A stretch of DNA of 64,000 nt. Source: an uncultured Clostridia bacterium (lineage in GTDB: Bacteria; Bacillota; Clostridia; Oscillospirales; Ruminococcaceae). Both the position numbers and the translations under genes were made by a program. The notes beneath the pieces are model-generated. The model had not been told where the DNA came from. It did not search any database and saw only the letters and a list, made by a program, of their open reading frames with translations. The DNA lies in NCBI GenBank assembly GCA_944382845.1, contig CALWNN010000085.1:2150-66149 (forward strand). Direction: 5' to 3'. This document shows, one piece after another, positions 1,340 through 59,660 of the stretch. Each line of letters starts with the position of its first letter. Within the stretch, counting starts at the first letter, position 1.

Positions 1340-1377
1340 ATTTAAATCGGAGCAAAGCCCCTCGGCGACTTAGTTAT
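1340..1377 (+). repeat. Minimal (ends-only, 38 nt) copy of the modular intergenic repeat family
   Basis: ATTTAAATCGGAGCAAAGC-CC-CTCGGCGACTTAGTTAT. It matches the left and right ends of the 169-nt copy at 16834-17002. It lies between the htrA stop and its terminator, and the htrA stop codon (1370-1372) is inside it. Confidence 0.75.
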
Positions 1378-8085: not shown

Positions 8086-8113
8086 ATGTCGATTTAAAAT
8101 TGCCTTACAAGGG

Positions 8114-13733: not shown

Positions 13734-14549
13734 GTGCGTTTCCCGAAAGGATTTTACGCACAAATACTTATGAAAAAATTACTGGCAATTACTCTTGCTG
13801 CTCTTATGGCTTTTTCTATGGCTGCCTGCAATGAGGAAGAGAAGGACGATGATTCAGCAATATCAAACAATTCTTCTTCTGTTGTTGACGACGGCAGTTC
13901 TGAGGACGAGGACGGCTCGGATGTTGACGACGGCAGTTCCGAGGACGACGACGGCTCGGACGTTGACGACGGCAGTTCTGAGGACGACGGCTCGGACGTT
14001 GACGACGGCAGTTCTGAGGACGACGGCTCGGATGTTGACGACGGCAGTTCTGAGGACGACAGCTCGGACGTTGACGACGGCAGTTCTGAGGACGACGACA
14101 TCTCGGACGTTGACGATATAACCACCGCTTCGGGTACTATTGAAAACGGCGTTATCACTGTGCAAGAGCTTACAATGACAGTTGACGACACTTGGACGAT
14201 TGTTGATCAGTCAGGTCAGACATATTTTGTTCCTGCCGATTATGAGACTTACGGAAACAATGTAAACATTATCCGTCAGGCTTACGACGCAATGTTTGAT
14301 TCCTATAGCAAGGAAATATTTGAAACTCAGCTCCAGGCATTCATGGGCGAGGATTTTAAGGTTTCAAGCTTTGAAAGAACCACAATAAACGGCACTGACG
14401 CAATTTTAATGTCCTACGAGTACAGCGGATTCATCCTTACACAGGTAATGCTCAATACTGATGATTGTTCATTTATCGTAACCTTTACAGGCACAGGCGG
14501 AACATTTGAAGATGTTACTCCGTTTATTGAAACCATTGAAGTAAAATAA
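13734..14549 (+). CDS. Lipoprotein with Asp/Glu/Ser-rich tandem repeats and a globular C-terminal domain of unknown function
   Basis: The canonical lipoprotein signal MKKLLAITLAALMAFSMAAC starts at the ATG at 13770. The maximal ORF uses the GTG at 13734. Repeats are of the form DDGSSEDDDGSDV. Confidence 0.65.
   Translation: MRFPKGFYAQILMKKLLAITLAALMAFSMAACNEEEKDDDSAISNNSSSVVDDGSSEDEDGSDVDDGSSEDDDGSDVDDGSSEDDGSDVDDGSSEDDGSDVDDGSSEDDSSDVDDGSSEDDDISDVDDITTASGTIENGVITVQELTMTVDDTWTIVDQSGQTYFVPADYETYGNNVNIIRQAYDAMFDSYSKEIFETQLQAFMGEDFKVSSFERTTINGTDAILMSYEYSGFILTQVMLNTDDCSFIVTFTGTGGTFEDVTPFIETIEVK
13884..14116 (+). repeat. In-frame tandem repeats (about six units of 36-39 bp) encoding VDDGSSEDD(D)GSD
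   Basis: GTTGACGACGGCAGTTCTGAGGACGACGGCTCGGAC recurs with point and 3-nt length variants. Long repeat-derived ORFs on the antisense strand are artefacts. Confidence 0.9.
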
Positions 14550-15384: not shown

Positions 15385-16785
15385 TTACAGATAATTAAGT
15401 GGATTCTGTGCAACTCCGTTTAAAAGTATTTCAAAGTGAAGATGATCTCCCGTTGAAAATCCTGTTGAACCTACGATTCCCAGAACATCGCCCTGATTTA
15501 CCTTCTGACCAACAGAAACATTCATATACTGTGCGTGTCCGTAAAGTGTCATATAGCCGTTTCCGTGGTTTATGATGCAATAGTTTCCGTATCCTCCGCC
15601 ACAACCGCACGAACCGCTCTTGCCATAGTCGTGAGAACATGAATTGTTGACTTTTACAACTGTTCCGCTGTCAGAAGCACAGATATTTGCTCCTCTGATG
15701 CCGTATGAGGAAATATCTATTCCCTTATGGTATGCGCCCCATCTCCAGCCTACTCCGGAGGTTATGTTATAATATCCGGGGACAGGCCATGCAAATATTC
15801 CCGAGCCGTACTGAAAAGAGTCGTCCGAAGAGCTGCTGCTTCCGGAATTGTTTGAGCTTTCCGAGCTGTCAGAACTTCCGCTCTGCTGATTCTGCTGAGC
15901 CAAAGCCTCCTGCTTTTTACGCTCTTCCTCTTCACGGCGCTTTCTTTCTTCCTCTTCTTTCTTACGCTGTTCCTCCTGTGCCACAAGGTCGTCAATAACG
16001 TCCTGAATGTCCATCATTTCCCCTTCAAGTTCGCTGTAGTCGCTCTCGCCCTGAATAATCAGACCCTCAAGTTCCTCAGCCGACTCCTGGCTCTCAGCAT
16101 AAAGCCCGCTCAGCTTTTCACGCTGAACGTCCTGCTCCTCCTTCTGAGTATTATACTCAGTCATCTGAACCTCAAGCTCCTGCTTCTTTATTTCAAGAGC
16201 CTCTTCCTCGGCTTCAAGCTGTTTTTTAAGGTCGTAAAGCTCGCTTATTATTTTGTTGTCGTAATCTGCAACTCTCTTAACAAGCTCCGTTTTCATAAGC
16301 ATATCGTAAAAGCCGTCGGCAGAAAGAATAAGACTGCTGTAAGACCCTTCGCCGGCAATATACATCGCTCTCAGTCTTGCCATAAAGGCTTGCTTGCCTT
16401 CTTCTATCTCGACCTTCTTTTCCTCAATAGCCTTCTCCTTGTCGGCTATATCCGTTTCACAAGCGCTTATGTCCTTTTTAAGCTGTAAAATATAATTTGA
16501 AAGAACTTCGAGAGTATTTTCAACAGTATCTATCTGTACAAGAAGATCCTCCTGATAAGCCTTTTCATTTTCAAGATCGTTCTTGTTCTGCTGAAGCTGA
16601 GCGTCTATCTCAGCCTGCTGTTGCTTATAGTCCTCAAGCTGTTGCTGATACTCGTTTATCTGCTCCTGATAGGAAGCAGCTTCAGTAGTTATCTCAGGCT
16701 TGTTACTGTTGTTTGAAACTATCATTGTAGCTGCAACAATAAATGCAGTCAATGCTGCAGCAACCTGTTTGATTCTGCTTTTCAT
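15385..16785 (-). CDS. Secreted coiled-coil plus M23 (LytM) peptidase, EnvC/PcsB-like partner of FtsEX
   Basis: 466 aa. It has a signal/TM, about 250 aa of heptad-rich Q/E/K coiled coil, a Ser-rich linker, and an M23 domain (HKGIDI ... GDHLHFEI). It sits directly downstream of ftsE-ftsX. Confidence 0.82.
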   Translation of the reverse strand: MKSRIKQVAAALTAFIVAATMIVSNNSNKPEITTEAASYQEQINEYQQQLEDYKQQQAEIDAQLQQNKNDLENEKAYQEDLLVQIDTVENTLEVLSNYILQLKKDISACETDIADKEKAIEEKKVEIEEGKQAFMARLRAMYIAGEGSYSSLILSADGFYDMLMKTELVKRVADYDNKIISELYDLKKQLEAEEEALEIKKQELEVQMTEYNTQKEEQDVQREKLSGLYAESQESAEELEGLIIQGESDYSELEGEMMDIQDVIDDLVAQEEQRKKEEEERKRREEEERKKQEALAQQNQQSGSSDSSESSNNSGSSSSSDDSFQYGSGIFAWPVPGYYNITSGVGWRWGAYHKGIDISSYGIRGANICASDSGTVVKVNNSCSHDYGKSGSCGCGGGYGNYCIINHGNGYMTLYGHAQYMNVSVGQKVNQGDVLGIVGSTGFSTGDHLHFEILLNGVAQNPLNYL

Positions 16786-16833: not shown

Positions 16834-17002
16834 ATTTAAATCGGAGCAAAGCGTGATAAGCTCGCTTAATCACGTTGCGACGATTGCAATCGTCGCCGAG
16901 GAGCTTTGCTCCTCAGTTTTTCAGTGGGGGATTAAAACCCCCACTGAAAAACTGAATGGAACCCGCCGCCTTAGAGGCGGGGGACATCGGCGACTTGGTT
17001 AT
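16834..17002 (+). repeat. Full-length (169 nt) copy of a modular hairpin-rich intergenic repeat (reference copy)
   Basis: It is made of consecutive hairpins. These are GTGATAAG/CTTAATCAC, GCGACGATTG/CAATCGTCGC, GAGGAGC/GCTCCTC, TTTTTCAGTGGGGG/CCCCCACTGAAAAA and CCCGCC/GGCGGG. The ends are ATTTAAATCGGAGCAAAGC and CGGCGACTTGGTTAT. Confidence 0.9.
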
Positions 17003-17004
17003 AG

Positions 17005-17910
17005 TTATACCTTGCAGTACTTGCTTGTACTGATGGTAGTTCCTATTGCCCCTATAACAGCTCCCGCAACAATATAGGCTGTCGCTACATATTTTACGAT
17101 GGAATCGTATGAATAAAGCGATGAGATGCCAAGAGCGGTAAGAATGTTCATATTGTTTGTGAGAATGTCGTAAAGTCCCACATATACAAACTTAGTCAAA
17201 AACAGCGAACATACTCCTGCAAGAACTCCGATAAGCATACCTTCAACAAAGAAAGGTATTCTTATAAATCTGTTTGTGGCTCCCACATATCTCATAATGT
17301 TTATTTCTTTTCTTCTTGAGAACACGCTTGCTCTTGTTGTATTAGAAATGATTATAAGACAGACTACAACAAGCGCTGCGATAATTGCAGTTGAAACAAG
17401 AGTGAGTATATTTCTTATGCTTATAAGAACGTCCGCATACTCGTTAGGCGATTTAACGCTTTCAACGTTTTCCAAAGCCGATATCTGCACCGTGGTGTTT
17501 CCCATAGTCTCGATATCCACAACAGTAACTCTGTAGGTATCGGGAAGAGGGTTATCGTCTGCATACTGGAAAAGATCCTTTTCCTCCTCGGTCATATCAG
17601 CCACCATGTCCTGCCACGCCTGATCCCTCGAGAAAAATTCGCACCCGGAGATATTTGCAAGACTTTGTATGCTCTGTCCAAGTTCATCTATCTGTTCCTG
17701 ACTGACGCCGTCGTTTATAATAACGACTATCTCGTTTTTCTCTTCCATTGAGTCTATGGCTCTGTTAAGATTTAATGCGAGCAGAAAAGTAAGCCCCACA
17801 AGGAGCAGTGAAACAAGCATTATACAAAATGACGCAAAGGACATCATCCTGTTTCGCCAGACTCCCTTTATTCCCTGACCTATAAGGTCTTTATATGTAC
17901 TGACTCTCAT
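17005..17910 (-). CDS. ftsX: Cell division permease-like protein FtsX
   Basis: 301 aa. It has the FtsX topology (TM1, large extracytoplasmic loop, 3 C-terminal TMs) and overlaps ftsE by 4 nt. Confidence 0.88.
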   Translation of the reverse strand: MRVSTYKDLIGQGIKGVWRNRMMSFASFCIMLVSLLLVGLTFLLALNLNRAIDSMEEKNEIVVIINDGVSQEQIDELGQSIQSLANISGCEFFSRDQAWQDMVADMTEEEKDLFQYADDNPLPDTYRVTVVDIETMGNTTVQISALENVESVKSPNEYADVLISIRNILTLVSTAIIAALVVVCLIIISNTTRASVFSRRKEINIMRYVGATNRFIRIPFFVEGMLIGVLAGVCSLFLTKFVYVGLYDILTNNMNILTALGISSLYSYDSIVKYVATAYIVAGAVIGAIGTTISTSKYCKV

Positions 17911-18590: not shown

Positions 18591-18731
18591 TTTGCTGCAC
18601 CGCCTTTTGTTTTATATCTTTTTATATCTTTTAAATCGGAGTAAATCTTAATTCTGCTTAACCTTCAAACAAAATCAAAGCCCTGCAAAAAGGCAACCTT
18701 CAGGGCTTTGTGTTTTCATTTATGACCTGTA

Positions 18732-20090: not shown

Positions 20091-20286
20091 ATAACCGTGT
20101 TGCAGACGTCCCCCTGCCAATTGCTTGGCAGGTGTGCCAATTGCTTGGCAGGTGTGCCAATTGTTCGGCAGGTCTGATTCAGAATTTCAGCGGAGGATAC
20201 AGAACCCTAAATTGAACCACTCTGATAAACCATGCTCTAAACAATGACAAGCTGCAAAGTTGCAATTGTTGCAGTTTAGATTTTAC
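20091..20286 (-). repeat. Diverged long copy of the repeat family with 3 tandem 20-nt hairpin units
   Basis: It starts ATAACCGTGTTGCAGACGTCCCC. Next come 3 units of CTGCCAATTGCTTGGCAGGT (20115-20174), then GATTCAGAATTTCAGCGGAGG, ending in TTGCAGTTTAGATTTT. It is closest to the copy at 47250-47412. Confidence 0.8.
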
Positions 20287-24637: not shown

Positions 24638-25252
24638 TTATCCCATACCCTCATACTCGTCGGAAGTGTCAACTCCCATTTCAATGTCCGGGTCAATATA
24701 AACCTCTTCGGTTGTAGATGAAGTGTCCTCAGCCTCGGTTTCTTCCGGAACAGTGGTAACAGGCTCCGGCTTAGTGGATTCCGTTATCGTTGTGGTAGTT
24801 GTTTTATTGGTGGTTGTAGTTTTCTTAGTGGTAGTTTTTTTCTTTGTTGTTGTCGTTTTCTTTTTAGTTGTGGTTTTCTTAGTAGTAGTTGCTTTCTTGG
24901 TAGTGGTTGTTTTCTTAGTAGTTGAGGCTTGGGTTATCGTAACGGGAGTCTGGGTGTCTACAGGTCTTTCACTTTCTGTTTCCTCCGGCTCTTCTTCTTT
25001 TTCAGAAGTGGTTGTTGTTTCCGGAGCTTTTGAAGCTTCCTCTGATGTGGTGGTTGTCAGTGGGTCGTAGGAAGTCTCAGCACCGGTGGTAGTTACAACC
25101 GGACCGTCAGTCACATCGGCATCGACTACGGAGGTTTCAGGCTCTCCAAACGTAGTTATAGTAAGCTTGTACGGCTCGTTCACAGGGATAGAACAGCCTG
25201 CCATACAGATAAGAGCCGCTGCGGCGAGCAGCGCAGAAACAGCTTTTTTCAT
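24638..25252 (-). CDS. Lipoprotein with Thr/Lys-rich low-complexity repeat (TTTKK)n
   Basis: 204 aa. It has a signal plus lipobox (LICMAGC), then a T/E-rich and a TTTKKxTTTKK tract. AAAGGAG RBS is present. Confidence 0.6.
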   Translation of the reverse strand: MKKAVSALLAAAALICMAGCSIPVNEPYKLTITTFGEPETSVVDADVTDGPVVTTTGAETSYDPLTTTTSEEASKAPETTTTSEKEEEPEETESERPVDTQTPVTITQASTTKKTTTTKKATTTKKTTTKKKTTTTKKKTTTKKTTTTNKTTTTTITESTKPEPVTTVPEETEAEDTSSTTEEVYIDPDIEMGVDTSDEYEGMG

Positions 25253-47249: not shown

Positions 47250-47412
47250 TTTAAAATCGACTGCAACGATTTCAACCGCAACATGGCGTGTTGTTCCTCA
47301 GGCGGGGTTAAAGTCAGGACTGACCGCCTCTGCTGAAATTCTAAATGGAACCTGCCGAATACTTGGCAGACCTGCCGAATACTTGGCAGGGGAACGTCTG
47401 CAACTTGGTTAT
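47250..47412 (+). repeat. Long copy of the repeat family with 2 tandem 20-nt hairpin units, inverted relative to 46254-46424
   Basis: It reads TTTAAAATCGACTGCAACG...GCTGAAATTCTAAATGGAAC, then CTGCCGAATACTTGGCAGAC x2 (47351-47390), then GGGGAACGTCTGCAACTTGGTTAT. Confidence 0.85.
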
Positions 47413-47483
47413 ATTATAACTTAAAAAGGTCTTATTGTAAAGTGAAAATTGCAAAAATGTTAAAAAGAAAGGAAATAAATTTT

Positions 47484-48113
47484 ATGAAAGGTTACAGAAT
47501 ACATCTTGTCCGCCACGGAATGACTGACGCAAACTTAAACGGAATCTATATCGGAAGTACCGACGAGCCTCTTTGTTCTCAGGGAGTAGGAGAGCTTTAT
47601 GAAAAGCTTGACAAAATGGTTTATCCGGGAGTGCAAAAAGTATATTCATCTCCTTTAAAGCGTTGTCTTTCAACTGCGGGGATTCTTTTTCCCGAAGCCT
47701 TTACTGTTTCGGTTGAGGATCTTCGTGAAATGGATTTCGGGGAATACGAAGGAAAAAAAGCAGTTGACCTTATGAACGATCCCGGATACAAAGAATTTTT
47801 AAAAGGCGGTCTTGACAATCCTCCTCCCGGAGGAGAAAGCATCAGACATGTAATTGAAAGAAGTTATGCAGGGATAAGCTATGTTGTTTCGGACATGATG
47901 AGAGAGGGGCTTACAAACTGCGCAGTAGTTACCCATGGAGGAATAATAATGAATCTCCTTTCCTGCTTTGGCATTCCCAAAATGCCCCCTATGCAGTTTC
48001 CCTGCGATTTCGGCGAAGGATATGAGATACTTGTTACGGCGGATATGTGGATGAGATCCCATGCTTTTGAGATACTCGGAAAATTCCCTTTAAATCGAAG
48101 CAAAGACGATTAA
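47484..48113 (+). CDS. Histidine phosphatase family protein (phosphoglycerate mutase-like)
   Basis: It has the catalytic RHG motif (IHLVRHGMTDAN) and a downstream H (VVTHGG). The ATG at 47484 is preferred over 47442. Confidence 0.78.
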   Translation: MKGYRIHLVRHGMTDANLNGIYIGSTDEPLCSQGVGELYEKLDKMVYPGVQKVYSSPLKRCLSTAGILFPEAFTVSVEDLREMDFGEYEGKKAVDLMNDPGYKEFLKGGLDNPPPGGESIRHVIERSYAGISYVVSDMMREGLTNCAVVTHGGIIMNLLSCFGIPKMPPMQFPCDFGEGYEILVTADMWMRSHAFEILGKFPLNRSKDD

Positions 48114-48207
48114 GCCGTATATCTGCGACACGGTTACATCCGTGATGAAAATGAAGATACGGATCATATCCGACTGATCATTAAGATTCTCAAAAGGGAG
48201 TGTAGAG

Positions 48208-49047
48208 ATGACTAACAAACAGATAAAAACTCTCGCAAGGATAAAACTCAGAGGAAACTGGGGAAATAGTATTGCACTTGTTTTCTGCATATTTGCGGTG
48301 GCGCTTCTGATAATTATCGGAGGATACTTTGTTCTGTCTATGTACGCATATCTTATAGACGAAGAATTTTCCGTCTCCTCTTATCTTCACGATCCCGTTA
48401 ATCTGGGGATTTCTGTTACCGCAATATTATTGCTGACGGCAGTTTTATCCATGATATATTTTGTTATTGTAAGACAGTTTATAGACATTTCCAAGGGTGC
48501 GGATTTTTCAGAAAAACGCAACTCTGTTTACAAGCGTCCCTTACTTCTTATGAAAATCACCCTTATCCCTCAGTTTGCAAAGCTTGTTATAATTATTCTG
48601 GCGTCAATTCCGGGAATATTTGCCGTTGACTTTGCAAATAATCTTACGGCTCGGGCAAAGCAATCCTCAATAACTTTCATTCTGTTGCTTTTATTTATGG
48701 TGAGTCTGCTTGTGGTCATACTTTCCGCCATACTGGTCTTAGCGTGCATATTGAGCCTGCATTTACTGCCTGTTATAATAATGCTCCATCCTGCGATGCC
48801 TTTGGGAAAAGCCATAAAAATATGCTTTAAGGCAACTGATTCAAACCGCATAAGAATGCTTCTTTTTTATCTTTCCTTTATAAAATTCCTACCGCTTCTT
48901 TTACTTGTTTATCCGGGTTTTATTATAATACCGTATTTTGCAATGTCGGACATCGTGCTTATTTCCTCAATACTCGATGAAGATCTTAAAAAAGACGAAT
49001 TTTTCGACGTGTTTCCACAACTTTACAAGGAAAAGGAGAACCTTTAA
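48208..49047 (+). CDS. DUF975-like integral membrane protein
   Basis: 279 aa. The N-terminus IK..AR..L.GNWG..I....I is typical of DUF975. It has about 6 TM segments. Confidence 0.6.
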   Translation: MTNKQIKTLARIKLRGNWGNSIALVFCIFAVALLIIIGGYFVLSMYAYLIDEEFSVSSYLHDPVNLGISVTAILLLTAVLSMIYFVIVRQFIDISKGADFSEKRNSVYKRPLLLMKITLIPQFAKLVIIILASIPGIFAVDFANNLTARAKQSSITFILLLLFMVSLLVVILSAILVLACILSLHLLPVIIMLHPAMPLGKAIKICFKATDSNRIRMLLFYLSFIKFLPLLLLVYPGFIIIPYFAMSDIVLISSILDEDLKKDEFFDVFPQLYKEKENL

Positions 49048-49051
49048 GAAC

Positions 49052-49909
49052 ATGGAAATGACATTTATCGTGCCTGCGGAGGAGCAAGGAAAGACCGCAG
49101 GGGAATTTCTTTTACACAGGGGAGCTTCAAGGCGGCTTATCACAAAACTCAAGCGCGTTCCTTCCGGAATAACAAGAAACGGCAGTCTTTGCAGGACAAT
49201 CGACAAGGTCAACGAAAAGGACGTTATAAAAATTTTTATGGAGGACGAAAAAAAGCTTACCCCAAACGGAGAACTCTTCGTTCCGGTTCTTTACGAAAGC
49301 GAATGTGCGGTCGTATTTGACAAGCCGAGTCTTATGCCGGTTCATCCGTCCATAAAGCATCAGGGGGACACTTTGGGAAATTATTTTTCATTTCTTTATC
49401 CCTCGCTTACTTTTCGTCCCGTAAACAGGCTTGACCGTGATACGTCGGGATGTTGTGTTGTTGCAAAAACTCCCTTTAGCGCAAAAGCGTTGCAGTTTTC
49501 AGTCAGAAAGATATACTATGCTGTAGTAGTCGGACAGTGTGAATCTGAAGGAACGATAGATCTTCCCATTGCAAGAAAGGAAAGCTCTATTATTTTAAGG
49601 GAGGTTTCCATGTCGGGGCAGAAAGCTGTCACTCACTATAAACGCATTTATACCGACGGGAGGTATTCTCTTGTTGAGATATACCTTGAAACGGGACGCA
49701 CTCATCAGATAAGGGTGCATTTTTCCCATATAGGATATCCGCTTTTAGGCGATGGAATGTACGGCGAAAAGTCAGATATTATTTCTCGTCAGGCCCTTCA
49801 CTGCGGCAGGGTTGAATTTGTCGATCCGCTCTCTCGGGAAACTGTGATATGCAAGTCGCCTTTGCCCAAAGATATGCAGGCTGTACTTACCCTCCCCTCA
49901 GAAATCTGA
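49052..49909 (+). CDS. RluA-family pseudouridine synthase
   Basis: It has an S4-like N-terminus and the catalytic HRLDRDTSG-type motif (VNRLDRDTSG), plus TGRTHQIRVH. The ATG at 49052 follows AAGGAGA; the maximal ORF starts at 48938. Confidence 0.85.
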   Translation: MEMTFIVPAEEQGKTAGEFLLHRGASRRLITKLKRVPSGITRNGSLCRTIDKVNEKDVIKIFMEDEKKLTPNGELFVPVLYESECAVVFDKPSLMPVHPSIKHQGDTLGNYFSFLYPSLTFRPVNRLDRDTSGCCVVAKTPFSAKALQFSVRKIYYAVVVGQCESEGTIDLPIARKESSIILREVSMSGQKAVTHYKRIYTDGRYSLVEIYLETGRTHQIRVHFSHIGYPLLGDGMYGEKSDIISRQALHCGRVEFVDPLSRETVICKSPLPKDMQAVLTLPSEI

Positions 49910-49948
49910 GGGGAATCATCAGAAATCTGAGGGGAGTCATCAGAAATA
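49894..49948 (+). repeat. Tandem 21-nt hairpin units (about 2.5 copies) overlapping the 3' end of the pseudouridine synthase gene
   Basis: CCCCTCAGAAATCTGAGGGGAAT / CATCAGAAATCTGAGGGGAGT / CATCAGAAATA. The first unit forms an 8-bp hairpin. Confidence 0.8.
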
Positions 49949-50170
49949 CAAGTGAGGTTGAGCCTTTTAAAAATAAAAGTCACCGCAAAAGATTAACGCT
50001 CCGAAACAGGGTATTCTGCTCCTTTAAAAGAAACGCCGGCAACGTCAGACCGTCGAAGCATCCGCAACATAAGTTAAAATTTTTACAGCATATTATCCAA
50101 AACCTATAACGGGTTTTTTGCTATAATGCACAAAGATTACAAATCCGTTTGTCAAAACTCCCGAAAAGCC

Positions 50171-50198
50171 TTGACTTTTTGATTTCCAGTGCTATAAT
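50171..50198 (+). promoter_or_regulatory. Sigma-A type promoter of the G5-M23 peptidase gene
   Basis: TTGACT (50171-50176), 16-nt spacer, TGcTATAAT (50190-50198). Confidence 0.6.
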
Positions 50199-50394
50199 GT
50201 AACTTGTTGTTACTATTTTGTAATAACAAACGCGACTGTTGTTACCATTTTGAAATCAATAAAGAAAGGGAGTTTTTCGTATCAGTATCCAGAATGTTTC
50301 AGTTGAAAACGGCGGAAAAACAAACGCAAAAACTGCACTTACCACACTTACTGCACTTGAAAGAATTAAGGAAAAAAAGAACATCATAACCACG

Positions 50395-51501
50395 GTGTGC
50401 GCTGTTATTGTCGCAGCATTAACGGTTGCGGCGTCAACCTTTGAGGGAAACGGAGCTTATATAGGCAATGCTGTTGAAAAATACTGCCCCGATGTTTCCC
50501 AAGTGACAAACCTTTCTGAAATTGTTGTCAAGGCACAATCCTACTATTCCACCTGTTCGCCTTATTCTACCGGAGAGGATGACTCTGTTCTCGCACAAAA
50601 CGACAGTCTTTACAAGACAGAAAAGGGTTATTCCGTTTATGTAAACGACGAGATCCTGGGAAACGTTTCTGAAAAAGGAAAAGTAAATCTCGAAAAGCAT
50701 ATTGAAGAATTTCTTTCTTCCTATAAATCAGATGAAAAAAACGCAAAAACCGTTCTTACAGATAAAATTGAATACGCAAGGGGAACTTTTGATTCTCTCT
50801 CAATAGTTTCGTCGCAGGAAATACTTGCACAAATGGAGCTTGAGGCAAAAACCACCTACACAACCACTTGCTCAGAAGAGATACCTTTTGAAGTGGTTTA
50901 CGAAAATTCCGATCAGATTTTCACAGACTGCCGGGTCGTTTCGACAGAAGGCAAAGCCGGACAAAAAAATGTTGTATACACGGTCAGTGAGATAAACGGC
51001 GAGGTTGTATCAAAAACCGCCGAAAAGGAAACGGTCGTTGCCGATGCCGTAAATCAGGTGGTTCTTGTCGGAACAAAACAACCTGTCACCCTTTCGGCAG
51101 AAGATATTGAAAAAGCGGGAGATTATGTATTCCCTCTTTCGGGACAAAGCTGTTACATTTCATCTGATTTCGGCTACAGAGAATTTGACGGCTCGTTCCA
51201 TAACGGAACAGACTATGCCGCAGACGAGGGAACAGAAGTGTACTGCGCCGCAGACGGCGTCGTGACCTTTGCAGGCTGGGATGATACCGGATACGGAAAC
51301 TATGTTGTTGTCACACACGAAAACGGCTATAAGACAGGATACGCTCACCTTTCTTCAATTTCCGCTGAGGAGGGAAAGAAAATTTCCGCGGGAGATATTA
51401 TAGGAGGTGTGGGAAGCACAGGCTACTCCACAGGAAACCACCTCCACCTTAACGTTTTCTACAACGGCGAAAGCGTAGACCCGCAGGAATTGTTCGGTTA
51501 A
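50395..51501 (+). CDS. Membrane-anchored G5-domain plus M23 (LytM) peptidase
   Basis: It has a G5 domain (...STEGKAGQKNVVYTVSEINGEVVSK...VVLVGTK) and an M23 domain (HNGTDYA ... GNHLHLNV). The frame is open back to 50263 with no canonical start there (see findings). Confidence 0.8.
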   Translation: MCAVIVAALTVAASTFEGNGAYIGNAVEKYCPDVSQVTNLSEIVVKAQSYYSTCSPYSTGEDDSVLAQNDSLYKTEKGYSVYVNDEILGNVSEKGKVNLEKHIEEFLSSYKSDEKNAKTVLTDKIEYARGTFDSLSIVSSQEILAQMELEAKTTYTTTCSEEIPFEVVYENSDQIFTDCRVVSTEGKAGQKNVVYTVSEINGEVVSKTAEKETVVADAVNQVVLVGTKQPVTLSAEDIEKAGDYVFPLSGQSCYISSDFGYREFDGSFHNGTDYAADEGTEVYCAADGVVTFAGWDDTGYGNYVVVTHENGYKTGYAHLSSISAEEGKKISAGDIIGGVGSTGYSTGNHLHLNVFYNGESVDPQELFG

Positions 51502-51651
51502 GAGAGGCGCTGTGGCGGAAAAATAAAAAGGCTGTCTGATATTGTATTCTATATGTGGAATTCATGACGCAGGATAATAACAATATGTTGTTATCCCCCT
51601 GAAACAAGGGAAAACAAAGCGGTTTAATTAGTTAAAAAATTGTGAAAATGC

Positions 51652-51680
51652 TTGACAAGAGAGATGAAAAAAAGTATAAT
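51652..51680 (+). promoter_or_regulatory. Sigma-A type promoter of rpmH-rnpA
   Basis: TTGACA (51652-51657), 17-nt spacer, TATAAT (51675-51680). Confidence 0.7.
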
Positions 51681-51768
51681 ATAAAATTGCAGGGGTTTTT
51701 TGAAATGGAAAAAATGAGTTGCAAAAATCAAAAAATCCGAAAGTTATGTGTCAAAGGAGGGTATTTTA

Positions 51769-51903
51769 ATGAAAAGAACTTATCAGCCCAAGAAGCTTCA
51801 GAGAAAGAAAGAACACGGCTTTATGAAGAGAATGTCTACAAGAAACGGACGCAAGGTGCTTGCACGCAGGAGAGCAAAGGGTAGAGCAAGACTTACCTAC
51901 TGA
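51769..51903 (+). CDS. rpmH: 50S ribosomal protein L34
   Basis: Translated by hand: [53 protein letters not shown] lies 8 nt upstream. It is too short for the supplied ORF track, whose 51642-51884 ORF is in another frame. Confidence 0.95.
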
Positions 51904-52005
51904 TAATGCTGACCACCCTGATTACCGAGCCTTAAAACAGGCTGGAGTTTGGTGTGGTCTTTTTTGCTTTTTAAAGAAAAAACAAAATTAATCGGAGAGA
52001 AAAAT

Positions 52006-52356
52006 ATGCTGTTTACCGCTGTTATGAAAAACGATAAGGACTTCAGAAGGGCTTACCGGAAAGGGAAATACTGCGTAAATGAAGCGGTGACCGCCTATTA
52101 TCTTCCGAATAAGCTTCCCATAAACAGACTTGGAATAACTACCGGGAAGAAAATTGGAAACGCGGTCAAAAGAAACCGTGCAAGAAGAATAATCAGAGCC
52201 GCTTACAGAGTGAAAGAGGAAATTCTCCCCATAGGCTTTGATATAGTAATTGTGGCAAGACCCGGTATAGAGGGTAAGAAGTCCACGGATATTGAAAAAT
52301 TCATAAGTTCACGACTTGTAAAGGAAATGAATAAGCCTTTTAAAAATAAAAAGTAG
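52006..52356 (+). CDS. rnpA: Ribonuclease P protein component
   Basis: It has the RNR motif KAV.RNR.RR and follows rpmH. The ATG at 52006 has a GGAGAG RBS; the maximal ORF starts at 51949. Confidence 0.88.
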   Translation: MLFTAVMKNDKDFRRAYRKGKYCVNEAVTAYYLPNKLPINRLGITTGKKIGNAVKRNRARRIIRAAYRVKEEILPIGFDIVIVARPGIEGKKSTDIEKFISSRLVKEMNKPFKNKK

Positions 52357-52357
52357 T

Positions 52358-52648
52358 ATGAAATATCTTGCTGTGATACTGATAAAAATATATCAGAAAA
52401 TTATAAGCCCAATGTTTCCGAAAAGCTGTAAATACTATCCGACTTGTTCAAGCTATGCCATAGAAAGCTATAGGCGGCATGGTTTTTTCAAAGGAACAAT
52501 ACTTTCCGTATGGAGGCTTTTAAGATGCAATCCCTTTTCAAAAGGCGGAGTGGATAAGGTTCCTGAAGAATTCAGTATTTTTGCCGCTTTAAAAAACAGG
52601 CTTGATAAGCTTTTGGCTGTCGTGAAAAAAAACAAGAACAAAATGTAA
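52358..52648 (+). CDS. yidD: Membrane protein insertion efficiency factor YidD
   Basis: It has IYQK.ISP.....C.Y.PTCS.Y....... G...G......R...C.P...GG.D. Confidence 0.9.
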   Translation: MKYLAVILIKIYQKIISPMFPKSCKYYPTCSSYAIESYRRHGFFKGTILSVWRLLRCNPFSKGGVDKVPEEFSIFAALKNRLDKLLAVVKKNKNKM

Positions 52649-52669
52649 AATCGGAGGTCTGACATACAC

Positions 52670-53962
52670 ATGAGTATTATCGCCATACCTTTCGGCTGGC
52701 TGATGAAGCTTTGCTATATGCTTGTGAAGAATTACGGCTTTGCCCTTATTCTGTTTACTTTTATCACAAAGCTTATTATGTTCCCGCTTCAGATAAAGCA
52801 GCAGAAAATGTCCGCAAAAACCGCTAAACTTAATCCAAAGCTCCAGAAATTAAAACAGAAGTACGGAAACAACAAGGAAAAATACAATGAAGAGCTTACC
52901 AAGCTCTATGCAGAAGAGGGCGTTTCAATGACCGGAGGCTGTCTGCCGTTGGTTATAAACTTTGTTCTTCTTTTTGCAATGATCGAAATCATATACGCTC
53001 CGTTTACCTACGTTACAAGCCTCAGCAAGGATAAGGTAAATGATGCAAAAGCTCTTGTTTCAAACATGATGACCGTAAGCTACGACATCAAGGATGGCGA
53101 CAAGGACAGCAATACTTATGCTGAGCTTAAAGACAGCAACGGCGATGTGTATGGGTATATCACGTCTGACGAGCATAAGGGAGATTTTAAGAATTCAAAC
53201 AAACTCGACAAAGATGAGCTTAAAGAAATTATTGAAATATTTGACACTCACCCGGGGCTTGACGAATACTTTTCCGATACAACAAAGGTAACTCAGAACC
53301 TTCAGGACCGTCCTGAGCTTCTTATTTTCAGAATAGTCGAGGACGGAAAGGGCGATTTCCTTGACAGCGAGGTTGTTGAAGTAGCAGAGGATTTCAATTA
53401 TGAAATGTTCGGAGTGTTCCTTGGAGATTACCCAAGCTGGAAGAGCGTTCTTGTGCTTATTCCTGTTCTTTCGCTTGTATTACAGCTTCTTGTGACTTTT
53501 GTTTCTCAGCATTACACCAAGAAGAATAATATAAATACAAACCAGCCGGGAATGGGCGGTATGACAGTCATGCTTTATGTTCTGCCATTGTTCTCATTCT
53601 GGATAGCATTCAACTTCCCTGCCGGTATCGGTCTGTACTGGATTGCTCAGTCGCTGTTCAGCCTTATTCAGGTAATAGTTGTCAACAAGGTCTATACTCC
53701 GGAATATATTGATAAGCTCAACGAAAAGGACGCTGAAAAGAGAAAGAAAAAGGGTAAGAAATCCTTTATGGAAAGAGCCCTGGAGACTCAACAGCTCCAG
53801 TCAAACGGCGGTGCGCCGGAAAAAAACAGCGATGACGAAGTTCTTACCGAGGAGGAAAAGAAGCTTTCAAAAGCAGAACTTAAGGAGCTTCAGAGAAAAC
53901 GTCTTAACGAAGCAAGAAAACGTATGGCTGAAAAATACGGAGACGAATACAAAGAAGACTAA
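52670..53962 (+). CDS. yidC: YidC/Oxa1-family membrane insertase (long form with about 135-aa insertion and Lys-rich tail)
   Basis: It has a coiled-coil C1 region (QQKMSAKTAKLNPKLQKLKQKYGNNKEKYNEEL.KLY.EEGV), GCLP and conserved TM3-5. A basic C-terminal tail is present. Confidence 0.88.
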   Translation: MSIIAIPFGWLMKLCYMLVKNYGFALILFTFITKLIMFPLQIKQQKMSAKTAKLNPKLQKLKQKYGNNKEKYNEELTKLYAEEGVSMTGGCLPLVINFVLLFAMIEIIYAPFTYVTSLSKDKVNDAKALVSNMMTVSYDIKDGDKDSNTYAELKDSNGDVYGYITSDEHKGDFKNSNKLDKDELKEIIEIFDTHPGLDEYFSDTTKVTQNLQDRPELLIFRIVEDGKGDFLDSEVVEVAEDFNYEMFGVFLGDYPSWKSVLVLIPVLSLVLQLLVTFVSQHYTKKNNINTNQPGMGGMTVMLYVLPLFSFWIAFNFPAGIGLYWIAQSLFSLIQVIVVNKVYTPEYIDKLNEKDAEKRKKKGKKSFMERALETQQLQSNGGAPEKNSDDEVLTEEEKKLSKAELKELQRKRLNEARKRMAEKYGDEYKED

Positions 53963-53985
53963 TTTTAAGAGAGAGGAAGAGAAAA

Positions 53986-54771
53986 ATGAAAGAAATCTTT
54001 ACAGCAAAAACCGTTGAAGAAGCTAAAGAACTTGCTGCTTCAAAATTCGGAACAGATATAAACAAGATCTCTTTTGAAGTTATTGAAGAGCCTAAAAAGG
54101 GTCTTTTCGGAAAGCTTAAAGGAGAGGCTAAGGTTGAGGCTTCATACACACTTACAAAGGCTGACCTTTCCGTTAAATACATTAAAAGCGTTCTTGCCGC
54201 CGCAGGAATCGAAAACCCGACTTGTGAAATTACAGAGGTAGACGGCGGAGCTGAAATTGAAATCGGCGGAACGGACATAGAATCCTTTATCGGCAAAAGG
54301 GGAGAAGCTATCGACTCCTTGCAGTACCTTTGCTCGCTTGTGTGCAATAAGATAGACAGGGATTATTACAGAATCACAATTGACTGCAACGGCTTCAGGG
54401 AGAAAAGAAAAGCCCAGCTTGAAGAGCTTGCAAGAAAAATGGCTGCCAATGTTAAAAAGAACGGCAGAACGGCGGCTCTTGAACCTATGAATCCTTACGA
54501 GAGAAGAATTATCCATGCCGCTGTTTCCGATATTGAAGGGGTAACCTCACGCTCGGTCGGAGAGGAACCTTACAGAAAGGTGCTTATAAGCTCCACGGAG
54601 AAGAGAGGATACGGCAAAGAAAGACGGGGAGGAAGAAACGGCTCAAGAAGAGAAAACCGCAGACCTCAGAAGTCCTTCGATATCTCAACCTCTTTTGAAA
54701 AGGAATACAAAAAACCAAAGCCTGAGGACTCATTGACAGGCGCAGGACTTTATTCAAAGATAGAATTCTGA
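53986..54771 (+). CDS. jag: Jag/KhpB RNA-binding protein (Jag_N, KH, R3H)
   Basis: It has the Jag N-terminus (TAKTVEEA...A...), a KH-like middle region and an R3H motif (L.PM.PYERRIIH). Its position after yidC is typical. Confidence 0.88.
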   Translation: MKEIFTAKTVEEAKELAASKFGTDINKISFEVIEEPKKGLFGKLKGEAKVEASYTLTKADLSVKYIKSVLAAAGIENPTCEITEVDGGAEIEIGGTDIESFIGKRGEAIDSLQYLCSLVCNKIDRDYYRITIDCNGFREKRKAQLEELARKMAANVKKNGRTAALEPMNPYERRIIHAAVSDIEGVTSRSVGEEPYRKVLISSTEKRGYGKERRGGRNGSRRENRRPQKSFDISTSFEKEYKKPKPEDSLTGAGLYSKIEF

Positions 54772-54793
54772 TAAAAACTAATAACAATAACAC

Positions 54794-54820
54794 ATCGCCC
54801 TTGCAACAAAGGGCGATTTT
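54794..54820 (+). terminator. Rho-independent terminator after jag
   Basis: ATCGCCCTT-gcaaca-AAGGGCGAT followed by TTT. Confidence 0.75.
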
Positions 54821-54825
54821 GGTAT

Positions 54826-54934
54826 ATAACTAAGTCGCCGATGTCCCCCGCCTTAAAGGCGGGGGTTCCATTCAGAGTTTCAGTGGAGGATTAAAACCCC
54901 ACTGAAACTCTGAGGAGCTTTGCTCCGATTTAAA
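54826..54934 (-). repeat. Medium (109 nt) copy of the repeat family
   Basis: ATAACTAAGTCGCCGATGTCCCCCGCCttaaaGGCGGGGGTTCCATTCAGAGTTTCAGTGGaggattaaaaCCCCACTGAAACTCTGAGGAGCTTTGCTCCGATTTAAAG. It aligns along its length with the reverse complement of 16834-17002, minus two internal hairpins. Confidence 0.9.
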
Positions 54935-54962
54935 GCGCAAGTTTAACAGTGAGGAATAATTT

Positions 54963-56321: not shown

Positions 56322-56340
56322 TTTGCGGTGGGAGGAAAAT

Positions 56341-56832
56341 ATGGCTGAACAAAAAACAAATGTAATGAGGATACTTGACAAGGCTAAAATTCCTTACGAG
56401 CATTATCTGTACAAATCTGACGGGCAGATCGACGGAGTACACGTTGCTGAAATCTGCAAAATTCCTCCTGAAAAGTGCTTTAAGACCCTCGTTACCTCAC
56501 ATACGGAAAAGAGCGGGAAAAAAGAATATTTTGTGTTTGTGATACCTGTCGCTCAAAACCTTGACCTCAAAGCCGCCGCAAAAAGCGTTGGTGCAAAAAA
56601 CGTTGAAATGCTTCACGTCAAGGACCTTCTTCCCGTAACAGGATATATCAGAGGGGGATGCTCCCCTATCGGCATGAAAAAACAGTTTAAAACCGTTATC
56701 CATATTTCCGCTGAAAACCTTGACTTTATGACTGTAAGCGGCGGAAAAATCGGCGCGCAGGTAAGGCTTGCCCCCACCGACCTTGCTATGCTTATCGGTG
56801 CGGAATTTGCGGATATCTGTGAAAAAAAATAA
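56341..56832 (+). CDS. ybaK: Cys-tRNA(Pro)/Cys-tRNA(Cys) deacylase YbaK/EbsC family
   Basis: It is 163 aa from the ATG at 56341 (GGGAGG RBS). YbaK pattern: T...R.L......Y....Y ... KTL........V.V.P....LDLK..A...G.K...M. Confidence 0.8.
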
Positions 56833-56863
56833 GATTAAATTGAACCTAAAAGGACTTGATAAA

Positions 56864-58738: not shown

Positions 58739-58742
58739 AAAT

Positions 58743-58758
58743 TGTTCCACGTGGAACA
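58743..58758. promoter_or_regulatory. parS centromere-like site (perfect 16-bp palindrome)
   Basis: TGTTCCACGTGGAACA, compared with the B. subtilis parS TGTTCCACGTGAAACA (15/16). It lies in the mnmG-rsmG spacer, 1.1 kb from a ParB-family gene. Confidence 0.85.
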
Positions 58759-58780
58759 ATCAAGGCGACAATTTAAAAAC
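58757..58780 (-). repeat. Possible collapsed (ends-only) copy of the repeat family abutting parS
   Basis: CAATCAAGGCGACAATTTAAAAAC, compared with the ends of the copy at 59566-59660 (ATAACCAAGGCG ... GGCGACGATTTAAAAAC). Confidence 0.4.
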
Positions 58781-58837
58781 GGACGGGTTGAGGTATAATA
58801 ATTACAAACATATTGAAAGGGTATTTTACGGACAGGA

Positions 58838-59569: not shown

Positions 59570-59660
59570 CCAAGGCGTCGGTTTCCATTCAGTTTTCAGT
59601 GGGGATTATAATCCCCAACTGAAACCCTGAGGAGCAAAGCTCCTCGGCGACGATTTAAAA
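59566..59660 (-). repeat. Medium (95 nt) copy of the repeat family; its first bases contain the rsmG stop codon
   Basis: ATAACCAAGGCGTCGGTTTCCATTCAGTTTTCAGTGGGGattataATCCCCAACTGAAACCCTGAGGAGCAAAGCTCCTCGGCGACGATTTAAAAA. The rsmG TAA is at 59567-59569. Confidence 0.88.

What the first reader, a model, noticed from the sequence alone, without database searches (positions are those of the whole stretch)
16834..17002. Unnamed modular, hairpin-rich intergenic repeat family (BOX/REP-like), at least 6 long copies in 64 kb
The 169-nt spacer between ftsX and the M23 peptidase gene consists almost entirely of consecutive hairpins. In order:
- left end ATTTAAATCGGAGCAAAGC
- GTGATAAG..CTTAATCAC
- GCGACGATTG/CAATCGTCGC
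- GAGGAGC/GCTCCTC (also complementary to the left-end GGAGCAAAGC)
- TTTTTCAGTGGGGG/CCCCCACTGAAAAA
- CCCGCC/GGCGGG
- right end CGGCGACTTGGTTAT

The same element recurs with modules present or absent:
- 54826-54934 and 59566-59660 (reverse orientation)
- 1340-1377 (two ends only)
- a diverged subfamily at 20091-20286, 46254-46424 and 47250-47412
- possible end fragments at 18630-18646 and 8088-8100

All copies are intergenic. The two ends are not inverted repeats of each other, and no copy has an ORF. It is therefore not a classical MITE or IS. Conserved ends plus optional internal hairpin modules recall pneumococcal BOX or enterobacterial REP/BIME/ERIC elements. I do not recognise it as a named family. 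The reference copy sits inside an operon (ftsEX to its cognate hydrolase), where it could set relative expression.
Basis: seen in the sequence. Interest (0 to 1): 0.7.

Follow-up and report, generated by a model that had tools for sequence, protein, structure and literature searches.

The report
Small hairpin-rich mobile DNA repeat family
The hairpin-filled spacer after ftsX is one copy of a protein-less mobile DNA element, about 165 bases long, that inserts just after the sequence TATAA, is still moving in gut and rumen Oscillospiraceae, and most resembles the gene-less derivatives (PATEs) of IS200/IS605 insertion sequences.

Summary
The window holds eight copies plus one end fragment of a modular, hairpin-rich repeat. 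The same left-end motif occurs 68 more times in the two public scans (10 MAG species plus metagenome contigs).

The decisive finding is an empty site. Three metagenome contigs encoding the identical FtsX protein have a 55-nt ftsX-peptidase spacer that lacks the element. This sets the exact boundaries at 16835-16998 on the minus strand: TATAA|CCAAGTCGCC...CCGATTTAAA|. There is no target duplication and there are no terminal inverted repeats.

A second polymorphism shows another family member inserted after the same TATAA, head to tail with copy F.

The hairpins show compensatory changes. A 75-nt form that keeps only the two ends and the two outer hairpins has also spread.

The features that fit a non-autonomous IS200/IS605-type element (PATE), moved in trans by a Y1 transposase, are:
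- an AT-rich 5-nt target on one side only;
- no duplication and no inverted repeats;
- hairpins near both ends;
- an orientation bias towards the G-rich strand.

No transposase partner was found, so membership is inferred rather than shown. I rate it a new member of a known kind, of moderate interest. A fixed regulatory role in the ftsEX operon is not supported.

The parts
16835..16998 (-). Copy A, full-length reference element (164 nt): 5'-CCAAGTCGCCGATGT...GCTTTGCTCCGATTTAAA-3' on the minus strand
   Evidence: Boundaries come from the empty-site comparison with L001, L002 and L003. nhmmer matches model positions 1-166.
16999..17003 (-). Target pentanucleotide TATAA, directly 5' of the left end. 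It is pre-existing host DNA, 2 nt after the ftsX stop codon.
   Evidence: The empty site reads GGTATAACTATAA|TCACAAAAGG. The same 5' flank is seen at 6 of 8 window copies.
16984..16998 (-). Left end, 15 nt (CCAAGTCGCCGATGT). It lies in one of the two best-conserved stretches of the family. Nucleotides 5-11 can pair with the 5' arm of hairpin 4.
   Evidence: Invariant columns in alignment A1. The 7-bp complementarity covaries: A-T 23, C-G 18, mismatch 8.
16962..16983 (-). Hairpin 1, G+C-rich, near the left end (CCCCCGCC..GGCGGCGGG). In copies E, F and G it is replaced by 2-3 tandem 20-nt hairpins (CTGCCGAGTATTCGGCAGGT).
   Evidence: 96-98% of cells are paired. Tandem units are seen.
16913..16955 (-). 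Hairpin 2, the long central hairpin (TCAGTTTTTCAGTGGGGG..CCCCCACTGAAAAACTGA). It is dispensable for spread, yet its pairing is maintained.
   Evidence: 7 pairs show changes on both sides. It is absent from the 75-nt short forms.
16900..16912 (-). Hairpin 3 (GGAGCAAAGCTCC). Its 5' arm plus loop is also the exact complement of the right-end GCTTTGCTCC.
   Evidence: Seen in the MFE fold. The alternative 9-10-bp pairing has 3 covarying pairs but is absent in the GGCGAAG right-end type.
16877..16897 (-). Hairpin 4 (GGCGACGATTGCAATCGTCGC)
   Evidence: 97.7% of cells are paired. In 48 of 49 copies one pair is G.T on this strand; copy A has A-T there.
16852..16874 (-). Hairpin 5, near the right end (CGTGATTAAGCGAGCTTATCACG)
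   Evidence: 92.7% of cells are paired, and pair 154-165 switches U-A 28 / C-G 19. It is retained in the 75-nt short forms.
16835..16851 (-). Right-end tail CTTTGCTCCGATTTAAA, ending at the right junction
   Evidence: Empty-site comparison. GATTT(A/T)AA is conserved in all full copies.
54830..54934 (+). Copy B (105 nt, lacks hairpins 4 and 5), between jag and trmE, 28 nt upstream of the trmE start
   Evidence: The same 191-nt spacer is present in all 9 related contigs shown.
59570..59659 (+). Copy C (90 nt, rearranged left end, lacks hairpins 1 and 5). Its TATAA target contains the stop codon of the upstream gene (probably rsmG).
1341..1373 (-). Copy D (33 nt, the two ends only). Its nucleotides 2-4 provide the stop codon of the HtrA-like protease gene.
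20095..20285 (+). Copy E (191 nt, diverged subfamily with three tandem 20-nt hairpins)
   Evidence: Present in L001-L004.
46258..46422 (+). Copy F (165 nt, canonical left end plus three tandem 20-nt hairpins)
   Evidence: In L082 a second family member sits between its TATAA and its left end.
47250..47408 (-). Copy G (159 nt, diverged subfamily). It is inverted relative to F, and the two flank an XRE-type HTH gene.
48089..48133 (-). Copy H (45 nt, ends only), with 5' flank TGTAA. It overlaps the 3' end of the longest ORF call for the histidine-phosphatase gene.
   Evidence: (D10)
18630..18646 (-). Solo right-end remnant ATTTACTCCGATTTAAA, upstream of ftsE
   Evidence: (D10)

Best explanation
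This is a family of protein-less, non-autonomous transposable elements of the IS200/IS605 type, that is, palindrome-associated transposable elements (PATEs). It lives in uncultured gut and rumen Oscillospiraceae.

Shown here:
- A copy inserts precisely 3' of the pentanucleotide TATAA.
- Insertion duplicates no target. Only a 2-nt AA ambiguity remains.
- The element has no terminal inverted repeats.
- It carries a conserved 15-nt left end followed by a G+C-rich hairpin, and a hairpin 17 nt before a conserved ...GATTTAAA right end.
- Insertions are polymorphic between near-identical strains.
- A 75-nt derivative that keeps only those two ends and the two outer hairpins has spread to many sites. 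The ends therefore carry what is needed in cis.

Inferred:
- One strand (the minus strand for copy A) is excised as a single-stranded circle and pasted next to TATAA in single-stranded DNA at replication forks.
- The enzyme is a Y1 (HUH) TnpA-type transposase supplied in trans. It cuts after TATAA at the left junction and after TTTAAA at the right.
- Because the target pentanucleotide survives on the left, it can be used again, which gives head-to-tail tandems.
- The internal hairpins 2-4 are not needed for movement but their pairing is maintained. They are either passenger structure or an RNA or single-stranded-DNA function, possibly a guide-RNA scaffold.
- Copy A is a recent, apparently tolerated insertion in the ftsEX-peptidase operon. 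It is not an operon component.
For: 1. Empty versus filled site. L001, L002 and L003 carry the identical FtsX protein with 98-99.8% identical flanks and read GGTATAACTATAA|TCACAAAAGG. The window and L004 carry the 164-nt insert.

2. Second polymorphism. In L082 a 144-nt family member sits exactly between TATAA and the left end of copy F, with junction GATTTAAA|CCAAGTCGCC. It is absent from the window and from L081.

3. Target.
- 5' flank is TATAA at 6 of 8 window copies, with AATAA and TGTAA at the other two.
- It is TATAA at 7 of 10 copies found by nhmmer independently of the search pattern.
- The 3' flank is not conserved.

4. No inverted-repeat ends. No conserved ORF, because indels break every frame.

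5. Hairpins. 89.3% of cells are paired against 35-45% in slid controls. 12 pairs and 95 cells show two-sided changes, and 0 of 500 shuffles reach that.

6. Short 75-nt forms (left end + hairpin 1 + hairpin 5 + right end) lie at nine or more different loci in one MAG.

7. Orientation. The top strand lies on the G-rich strand (equivalent to the lagging-strand template) 52:29 (p = 0.014), and 39:17 where |skew| > 0.04. In the window, which contains a GC-skew switch at about 47-48 kb, six of eight copies fit: A, B, C, D and G and also H, judged from its strand and the local skew.

8. Literature.
- Y1-mobilised elements lack inverted repeats and target duplications, have subterminal hairpins and insert 3' of a 4-5-nt target (PMC4810608).
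- Their targets are AT-rich (TTAC, TTTAA, TTGAT), whereas IS607 prefers G-rich sites (PMC13565253).
- They prefer the lagging-strand template (PMC5027513).
- Protein-less PATEs are known (PMC10055086).
Against: - No autonomous partner was found. All 68 left-end matches in GTDB genomes and metagenome contigs are minis.
- A motif screen for Y1 and TnpB ORFs in about 0.6 Mb of flanks found nothing. No multi-copy ORF lies near copies.
- The left and right hairpins do not resemble each other, unlike IS608.
- The 4-5 nt 5' of the hairpin feet show no obvious relation to the cleavage sites.
- The strand bias is only about 2:1. It is confounded with gene orientation, because the target often overlaps a TAA stop codon.
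- G.T versus A.C asymmetry in the stems gives no consistent active strand.
- The 2-nt AA shared by target and right end would also fit a recombinase with a 2-bp crossover core.
Confidence: 0.6

Rival explanations
1. It is a mobile element, but it is moved as double-stranded DNA by a site-specific recombinase that exchanges strands at a 2-bp core (AA). The enzyme would be an IS607-type serine transposase, an IS110-type DEDD recombinase or an unknown enzyme. The hairpins would then serve something other than transposase recognition.
For: - Target (TAT-AA) and right end (TTTA-AA) share the dinucleotide AA, which is exactly the residual ambiguity at the junctions.
- These families also lack inverted repeats and real target duplications (own knowledge).
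- The left end (nt 5-15) and the right-end tail share a direct-repeat motif (CCGATGT / CCGATTT) that changes together between subfamilies. This could be a protein-binding site.
Against: - IS607 elements insert after G-rich sequences (PMC13565253), whereas this target is AT-rich.
- IS110 targets are specified on both sides of the core (own knowledge). Here only the 5' side is conserved.
- Hairpin pairing near both ends is maintained by compensatory changes, and the orientation is biased with respect to GC skew. A double-stranded mechanism predicts neither.
- No such recombinase was seen near any copy.
Confidence: 0.12
2. The element is a host-retained structural or regulatory repeat in the manner of BOX, REP/BIME or ERIC. 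Its role is at the RNA level (stabiliser, attenuator, processing site). Copy A would set the ratio of ftsEX to its hydrolase.
For: - All copies are intergenic and many lie in 5' leaders or between co-transcribed genes: 27-31 co-oriented tandem contexts against 14-15 anti-oriented.
- Pairing of the internal hairpin 2 is maintained although it is dispensable for spread.
- The family is modular, with variable numbers of tandem hairpin units.
- Genome-specific subfamilies (88-97% identity within a genome against 80% between genomes) suggest long residence.
Against: - Copy A is absent from three of five contigs of the same species, so it is not a conserved operon part.
- Both orientations occur.
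- There is no promoter or terminator signal on the operon's sense strand in copy A.
- Strict TATAA adjacency and tandem re-insertion are transposition signatures, not regulatory ones.
- Intergenic location is expected from purifying selection alone.
Confidence: 0.1
3. The element is mainly a gene for a structured RNA, for instance a guide-RNA (omega RNA) scaffold used in trans by a TnpB or IscB nuclease. The guide would be read from the DNA just outside the right end.
For: - PATEs 'often encode omega RNAs' used in trans (PMC10055086).
- Hairpins 2-5 and the 10-nt complementarity between hairpin 3 and the right-end tail form a compact multi-stem fold that ends at the right junction.
- The target TATAA would serve as the adjacent motif.
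Against: - No match to any Rfam family, even at E <= 10.
- No tnpB or iscB gene was found near any copy.
- The abundant 75-nt forms and copies B, C, D and H lack most of the putative scaffold.
- The second right-end type (GGCGAAG) lacks the long-range pairing.
- There is no expression evidence.
Confidence: 0.12

Closest known systems
PATEs (palindrome-associated transposable elements), the protein-less derivatives of IS200/IS605 elements described in haloarchaea, cyanobacteria and Geobacillus stearothermophilus
   Same: - Short and without genes.
- No terminal inverted repeats and no target duplication.
- Hairpins near both ends.
- Insertion 3' of a specific AT-rich 4-5-nt sequence.
- Many copies per genome, presumably mobilised in trans.
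   Different: - No autonomous or TnpB/IscB-bearing element with the same ends was found in 10 genomes.
- The two end hairpins are unlike each other.
- The interior is a set of optional hairpin modules, including tandem 19-20-nt hairpin units.
- The host group (uncultured Oscillospiraceae) and the sequence are new.
REP / REPIN / BIME elements with their RAYT (TnpA_REP) Y1 transposases
   Same: - Intergenic, palindromic and abundant.
- Thought to be moved by a Y1 enzyme that is not part of the repeat.
- Genome-specific variants suggest long residence.
- No multi-copy autonomous IS is needed.
   Different: - REPs are 20-40 nt with a conserved GTAG, and they usually occur as inverted pairs or clusters.
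- This element is about 165 nt, mostly solitary, has distinct left and right ends and a defined TATAA target.
- No RAYT-like gene was seen.
Pneumococcal BOX elements (boxA-boxB(n)-boxC)
   Same: - Modular build with conserved ends.
- A variable number of internal units.
- Strong predicted folding.
- Intergenic, in Firmicutes, with no ORF.
   Different: - BOX has no defined target, and no empty-site-proven precise insertion that I know of.
- Module sequences are unrelated.
- Here the evidence points to a specific transposition chemistry.
Classical bacterial MITEs (Correia/NEMIS, ERIC, RUP)
   Same: Small, non-coding, multi-copy, foldable, polymorphic between strains, often co-transcribed with neighbouring genes.
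   Different: Those have terminal inverted repeats and duplicate a short target (often TA). Both features were tested here and are absent.
IS200/IS605 insertion sequences (IS608 with target TTAC, IS605 with TTTAA, ISDra2 with TTGAT)
   Same: - Target on the 5' side only and no duplication.
- A right-end terminal motif (TTAAA) that resembles but differs from the target (TATAA).
- Similar spacing of hairpins from the cleavage sites: 15 nt on the left and 17 nt on the right, against 19 and 10 in IS608 (IS608 figures from own knowledge).
- Bias towards the lagging-strand template.
   Different: No tnpA or tnpB gene, and no sequence similarity to described members.

Membership tests
IS200/IS605 superfamily, non-autonomous (PATE) | No protein-coding capacity | tested here: met
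   Size is 33-191 nt. Indels among 49 aligned copies break every frame. The ORF list shows only one chance 74-aa ORF across copy A.
IS200/IS605 superfamily, non-autonomous (PATE) | No terminal inverted repeats | tested here: met
   The left end CCAAGTCGCCGATGT and the right end GCTCCGATTTAAA are not complementary.
IS200/IS605 superfamily, non-autonomous (PATE) | Insertion without target-site duplication | tested here: met
   Empty CTATAA|TCAC against filled CTATAA[164 nt]TCAC, with only a 2-nt AA ambiguity. The tandem insertion in L082 agrees.
IS200/IS605 superfamily, non-autonomous (PATE) | Insertion 3' of a specific AT-rich 4-5-nt target that abuts the left end only | tested here: met
   TATAA at 6 of 8 window copies and at 7 of 10 copies found independently of the pattern. 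The 3' flank is variable. Targets of known members are listed in PMC13565253.
IS200/IS605 superfamily, non-autonomous (PATE) | Imperfect hairpins near both ends, recognised by TnpA | tested here: inconclusive
   Hairpins lie 15 nt from the left junction and 17 nt from the right. They are supported by covariation and retained in the minimal 75-nt forms. However, the two hairpins differ in sequence and no guide/cleavage-site relation is evident.
IS200/IS605 superfamily, non-autonomous (PATE) | Ends shared with a TnpA(Y1)-encoding element, or a Y1 gene present in the same genome | tested here: inconclusive
   None was found among 68 left-end matches or in about 0.6 Mb of flanking DNA. Whole genomes could not be scanned.
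IS200/IS605 superfamily, non-autonomous (PATE) | Active strand biased to the lagging-strand template | tested here: met
   52:29 overall and 39:17 at clear skew. The bias is moderate and confounded with gene orientation.
Classical MITE (DDE-mobilised) | Terminal inverted repeats plus target-site duplication | tested here: not met
REP/BIME with RAYT | A 20-40-nt imperfect palindrome with a conserved 5' GTAG, in inverted pairs or clusters, with a RAYT gene flanked by REPs | tested here: not met
   The unit is about 165 nt with distinct ends, has no GTAG and is mostly solitary. The presence of a RAYT gene could not be tested.
Pneumococcal BOX | boxA, boxB and boxC module sequences | not tested
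   No BOX reference sequence was available in the tools. Only the modular principle is shared.
TnpB/IscB omega RNA (HEARO and related Rfam families) | Match to the covariance model, and adjacency to tnpB or iscB | tested here: not met
   No Rfam hit at the gathering score, and none credible at E <= 10. No such ORF lies nearby.
IS607 (serine transposase) | Insertion after a G-rich sequence | tested here: not met
   The target here is TATAA. The IS607 preference is taken from PMC13565253.
IS110 / bridge-RNA elements | Target sequence specified on both sides of a 2-bp core | tested here: not met
   Only the 5' side is conserved and the 3' flank is variable. The defining feature itself is from my own knowledge.

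The most novel reading that the evidence does not exclude
The family has no autonomous master copy at all. It would be a Clostridia counterpart of the REPIN-RAYT arrangement. In that reading, a single-copy, domesticated Y1 (or unknown) enzyme maintains a long-resident population of 165-nt modular elements. Their internal hairpins (2-4) would be kept because they do something as RNA, for example as a trans-used guide-RNA scaffold whose guide is read from each copy's right flank.
Probability: 0.15. Interest if true: 0.7.

Novelty: new member of a known kind. Interest (0 to 1): 0.45.

Why it matters
- It adds an undescribed, currently active non-autonomous element family to a large group of uncultured gut and rumen Oscillospiraceae. 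The density is about one copy per 8 kb in this window.
- Copies break assemblies: several contigs end inside them. They also create strain-level insertion polymorphisms in housekeeping operons such as ftsEX-peptidase, jag-trmE and the region of the GC-skew switch.
- The precise TATAA target, which often overlaps TAA stop codons, and the re-usable target site make the family a good natural system for studying single-strand transposition in Firmicutes.
- If a TnpB/IscB or RAYT-like partner is found, the family could provide a new adjacent-motif specificity, or a new case of long-term coexistence between a host and a transposon.
- For annotation, it explains otherwise puzzling long, hairpin-rich spacers.

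Tried and rejected
- Rfam at gathering score on the whole window, and at E <= 10 on copy A: only tRNAs and chance microRNA or CRISPR-repeat hits.
- Hammerhead-like core (CUGAGGA): the downstream GAAA and helices are missing, and there is no Rfam hit.
- Search for an autonomous copy:
  - left-end pattern in viral contigs, 0 matches;
  - GTDB genomes, 57 matches, all minis;
  - metagenome contigs, 11 matches, all minis;
  - hairpin 5 and hairpin 4 patterns in viral contigs, 0 matches;
  - blastn against plasmids and phages, no match.
- Motif screen for Y1 (xKYR...HxH) and TnpB (RuvC-III plus zinc finger) ORFs in all loci and the window: none.
- All-against-all ORF clustering: only ordinary paralogous families, no recurrent neighbour.
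- The XRE-HTH gene flanked by inverted copies F and G was considered as a partner. It has only an HTH domain and a helical tail, so it was rejected as a transposase.
- The idea that the element targets -10 boxes (TATAA|T): the context analysis shows stop-codon overlaps and both orientations, so it was not pursued.
- Using G.T versus A.C mismatches to name the functional strand: the result was mixed.
- Reading hairpins 4-5 as a remnant of a TnpB C-terminus: one frame is open in the consensus, but indels between copies break it.
- Look-ups of genes flanking copies C and G for more empty sites: those exact proteins are not on record.
- Integron attC, IS91 and group II intron fragments were considered and dismissed on anatomy.

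Full report
**The observation**

The spacer between ftsX (17005-17910, minus strand) and the PcsB-like M23 peptidase gene (15385-16785, minus strand) is 219 nt long. It folds much better than shuffled sequence on either strand (z = -9.4 and -8.8).

They add a 45-nt ends-only copy at 48089-48133 and a right-end remnant at 18630-18646. It may have been a slip for 48088.

**The decisive result: an empty site**

Looking up the exact FtsX protein in public assemblies returned contigs of the same species, with flanks 98-99.8% identical.
- In three contigs (L001, L002, L003) ftsX and the peptidase gene are only 55 nt apart. The sequence reads GGTATAACTATAA|TCACAAAAGG.
- In the window, and in L004 (a contig that ends inside the repeat), 164 nt are inserted at the bar: TATAA[CCAAGTCGCC...GCTCCGATTTAAA]TCAC.

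Several things follow.
- Copy A is exactly 16835-16998.
- No target duplication is made. Only a 2-nt AA ambiguity remains.
- The insertion is a strain polymorphism, not a fixed part of the operon.

**A second polymorphism**

Upstream of the ApbE gene, contig L082 carries an extra 144-nt family member. It sits exactly between the TATAA and the left end of copy F, head to tail, with junction ...GATTTAAA|CCAAGTCGCC.... The window and L081 lack it. The target pentanucleotide therefore survives insertion and is used again.

**Target and ends**

Re-oriented, the eight window copies have these 5' flanks: TATAA six times, AATAA once and TGTAA once. Ten further copies found by nhmmer, without using the flank, have TATAA seven times. 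The 3' flank is not conserved. The two ends are not inverted repeats.

**Distribution**

- The left-end pattern has 57 exact matches in ten species-representative MAGs labelled Oscillospiraceae, Ruminococcus, Ruminiclostridium, Clostridia or Clostridiales. Of these, 32 are in one MAG, CAMMVF01.
- A relaxed pattern found 11 more matches in metagenome contigs.
- There were no matches in viral contigs, plasmids or phages.
- Every match is a mini element. Nearly all complete ones have the right end within about 190 nt, and two look decayed.
- Size classes are about 165 nt (the majority), about 110 nt and about 75 nt.
- The 75-nt form consists of left end, hairpin 1, hairpin 5 and right end. It sits at nine or more different loci in CAMMVF01. 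These parts therefore suffice in cis.
- Copies are 88-97% identical within a genome and about 80% identical between genomes.

**Structure**

These counts use an alignment of 49 full-length copies (A1).
- For the five stem regions tested (hairpins 1, 2, 4 and 5, plus the long-range pairing of hairpin 3 with the right-end tail), 89.3% of cells are paired. Partners slid by 1-3 columns give 35-45%.
- Twelve pairs and 95 cells show changes on both sides. No shuffle out of 500 reaches this.
- Hairpin 2 alone has seven covarying pairs, although it is dispensable for spread.
- Two long-range complementarities also covary:
  - Left-end nt 5-11, GTCGC[C/A]G, pair with C[G/T]GCGAC, the 5' arm of hairpin 4: A-T 23, C-G 18, mismatch 8.
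  - GGAGCAAAGC (hairpin 3) pairs with the right-end GCTTTGCTCC. This pairing is missing in a second right-end type, GGCGAAG.
- Mismatch asymmetry (G.T against A.C) does not identify one functional strand.

**Context**

- Nearly all copies are intergenic. A few overlap a crude long-ORF call, and copy H overlaps the 3' end of a gene call.
- In tandem gene contexts, 27-31 copies are co-oriented with the genes and 14-15 are not.
- In a dozen or more cases the left end abuts a stop codon, because TA-TAA supplies the target.
- The window contains a GC-skew switch at about 47-48 kb and the rnpA-yidD-yidC-jag-trmE gene cluster, followed by ORFs I take to be mnmG and rsmG. It therefore probably spans the replication origin.
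- Over all loci, the element's top strand lies on the G-rich strand 52:29 (p = 0.014). Where skew is clear the ratio is 39:17.
- In the window, copies A, B, C, D, G and H fit this and copies E and F do not.

**Interpretation**

Published descriptions define Y1-mobilised elements as follows.
- They lack inverted repeats and target duplications, carry hairpins near both ends, and insert 3' of a specific 4-5-nt site (PMC4810608).
- Their targets are AT-rich (TTAC, TTTAA, TTGAT), whereas IS607 prefers G-rich sites (PMC13565253).
- They favour the lagging-strand template (PMC5027513).
- Protein-less derivatives (PATEs), some carrying guide-RNA genes, are known (PMC10055086).

The family here meets every anatomical criterion I could test. 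I therefore read it as a new PATE-like family, moved in trans by a Y1 transposase that cuts after TATAA on the left and after TTTAAA on the right.

What is missing is the enzyme.
- No gene-carrying element shares these ends in the data I could reach.
- A motif screen and ORF clustering of about 0.6 Mb of flanks found no candidate.

The left and right hairpins are also unlike each other. Membership is therefore an inference (confidence 0.6).

**Rivals**

- A double-strand recombinase using the shared AA as a crossover core (0.12).
This is weakened by the absence of copy A from most strains, and by the lack of promoter or terminator signals on the operon's sense strand.
- A primarily RNA-coding element such as a guide-RNA scaffold (0.12). 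This lacks any Rfam or neighbouring-gene support.

**Verdict**

The family is unnamed and real, but it is a target-specific mobile element of a known kind rather than a BOX- or ERIC-like repeat. I rate it a new member of a known kind, with interest 0.45.

Noticed in passing
window 46000-60000: The window probably spans the chromosomal replication origin. Cumulative GC skew reaches its minimum at about 47-48 kb, and gene orientation flips there. The rnpA-yidD-yidC-jag-trmE cluster, followed by ORFs that look like mnmG and rsmG and a parB gene, lies just to the right. No dnaA gene was identified in the window.
   Followed up: partly
window 46258-47408: Copies F (+) and G (-) lie in inverted orientation, left ends outward. 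They flank a 240-aa XRE-type HTH protein gene (46495-47217) right at the skew switch. The protein has no recognisable enzymatic domain. This exact protein is not on record elsewhere, although a 234-aa version is (L081).
   Followed up: partly
L082 667-810 (minus strand): The extra family member in this contig has hairpin 5 expanded by tandem 19-nt hairpin units (AGCTCTGAAAGAGATGTAT). A single such unit is present in the copy at L052 3908-4092. This is a second kind of amplifiable internal module, besides the 20-nt CTGCCGAGTATTCGGCAGGT units of copies E, F and G.
   Followed up: no
window 1341-1376: Copy D inserted inside the last codon of the HtrA-like protease gene (1370-2749). The element's first bases (C|TAA) restore the same final Asn codon and supply a new stop codon. 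The protein therefore still ends ...MENN* exactly as the inferred empty site would.
   Followed up: yes
window 13866-14123: An in-frame 36-nt tandem repeat (7 overlapping units) in ORF 13734-14549 encodes an Asp/Ser/Glu/Gly-rich, low-complexity acidic stretch.
   Followed up: no
window 24765-24940: An 18-nt tandem repeat (8 or more units) lies inside ORF 24638-25252 (minus strand). This is a repetitive low-complexity protein segment.
   Followed up: no
window 15385-16785 and 50395-51501: There are two M23 peptidase genes in the window. One is PcsB-like with a coiled-coil domain, downstream of ftsEX. The other has a G5 domain. Their shared domain explains inverted repeat I5 in the repeat scan.
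   Followed up: partly
L004, L014, L044, L067, L083, L084, L086 (contig ends): Several metagenome contigs end inside or at a copy of the element. The family therefore breaks short-read assemblies of these organisms, and copy numbers counted in MAGs are likely underestimates.
   Followed up: no
CAMMVF01 loci (for example L009 and L038 against L017 and L049): Two different right-end tails (CTTTGCTCCGATTTAAA and C[A/G]GGCGAAGATTTAAA) coexist in one genome, on otherwise similar copies. This implies recombination or module exchange between subfamilies.
   Followed up: no
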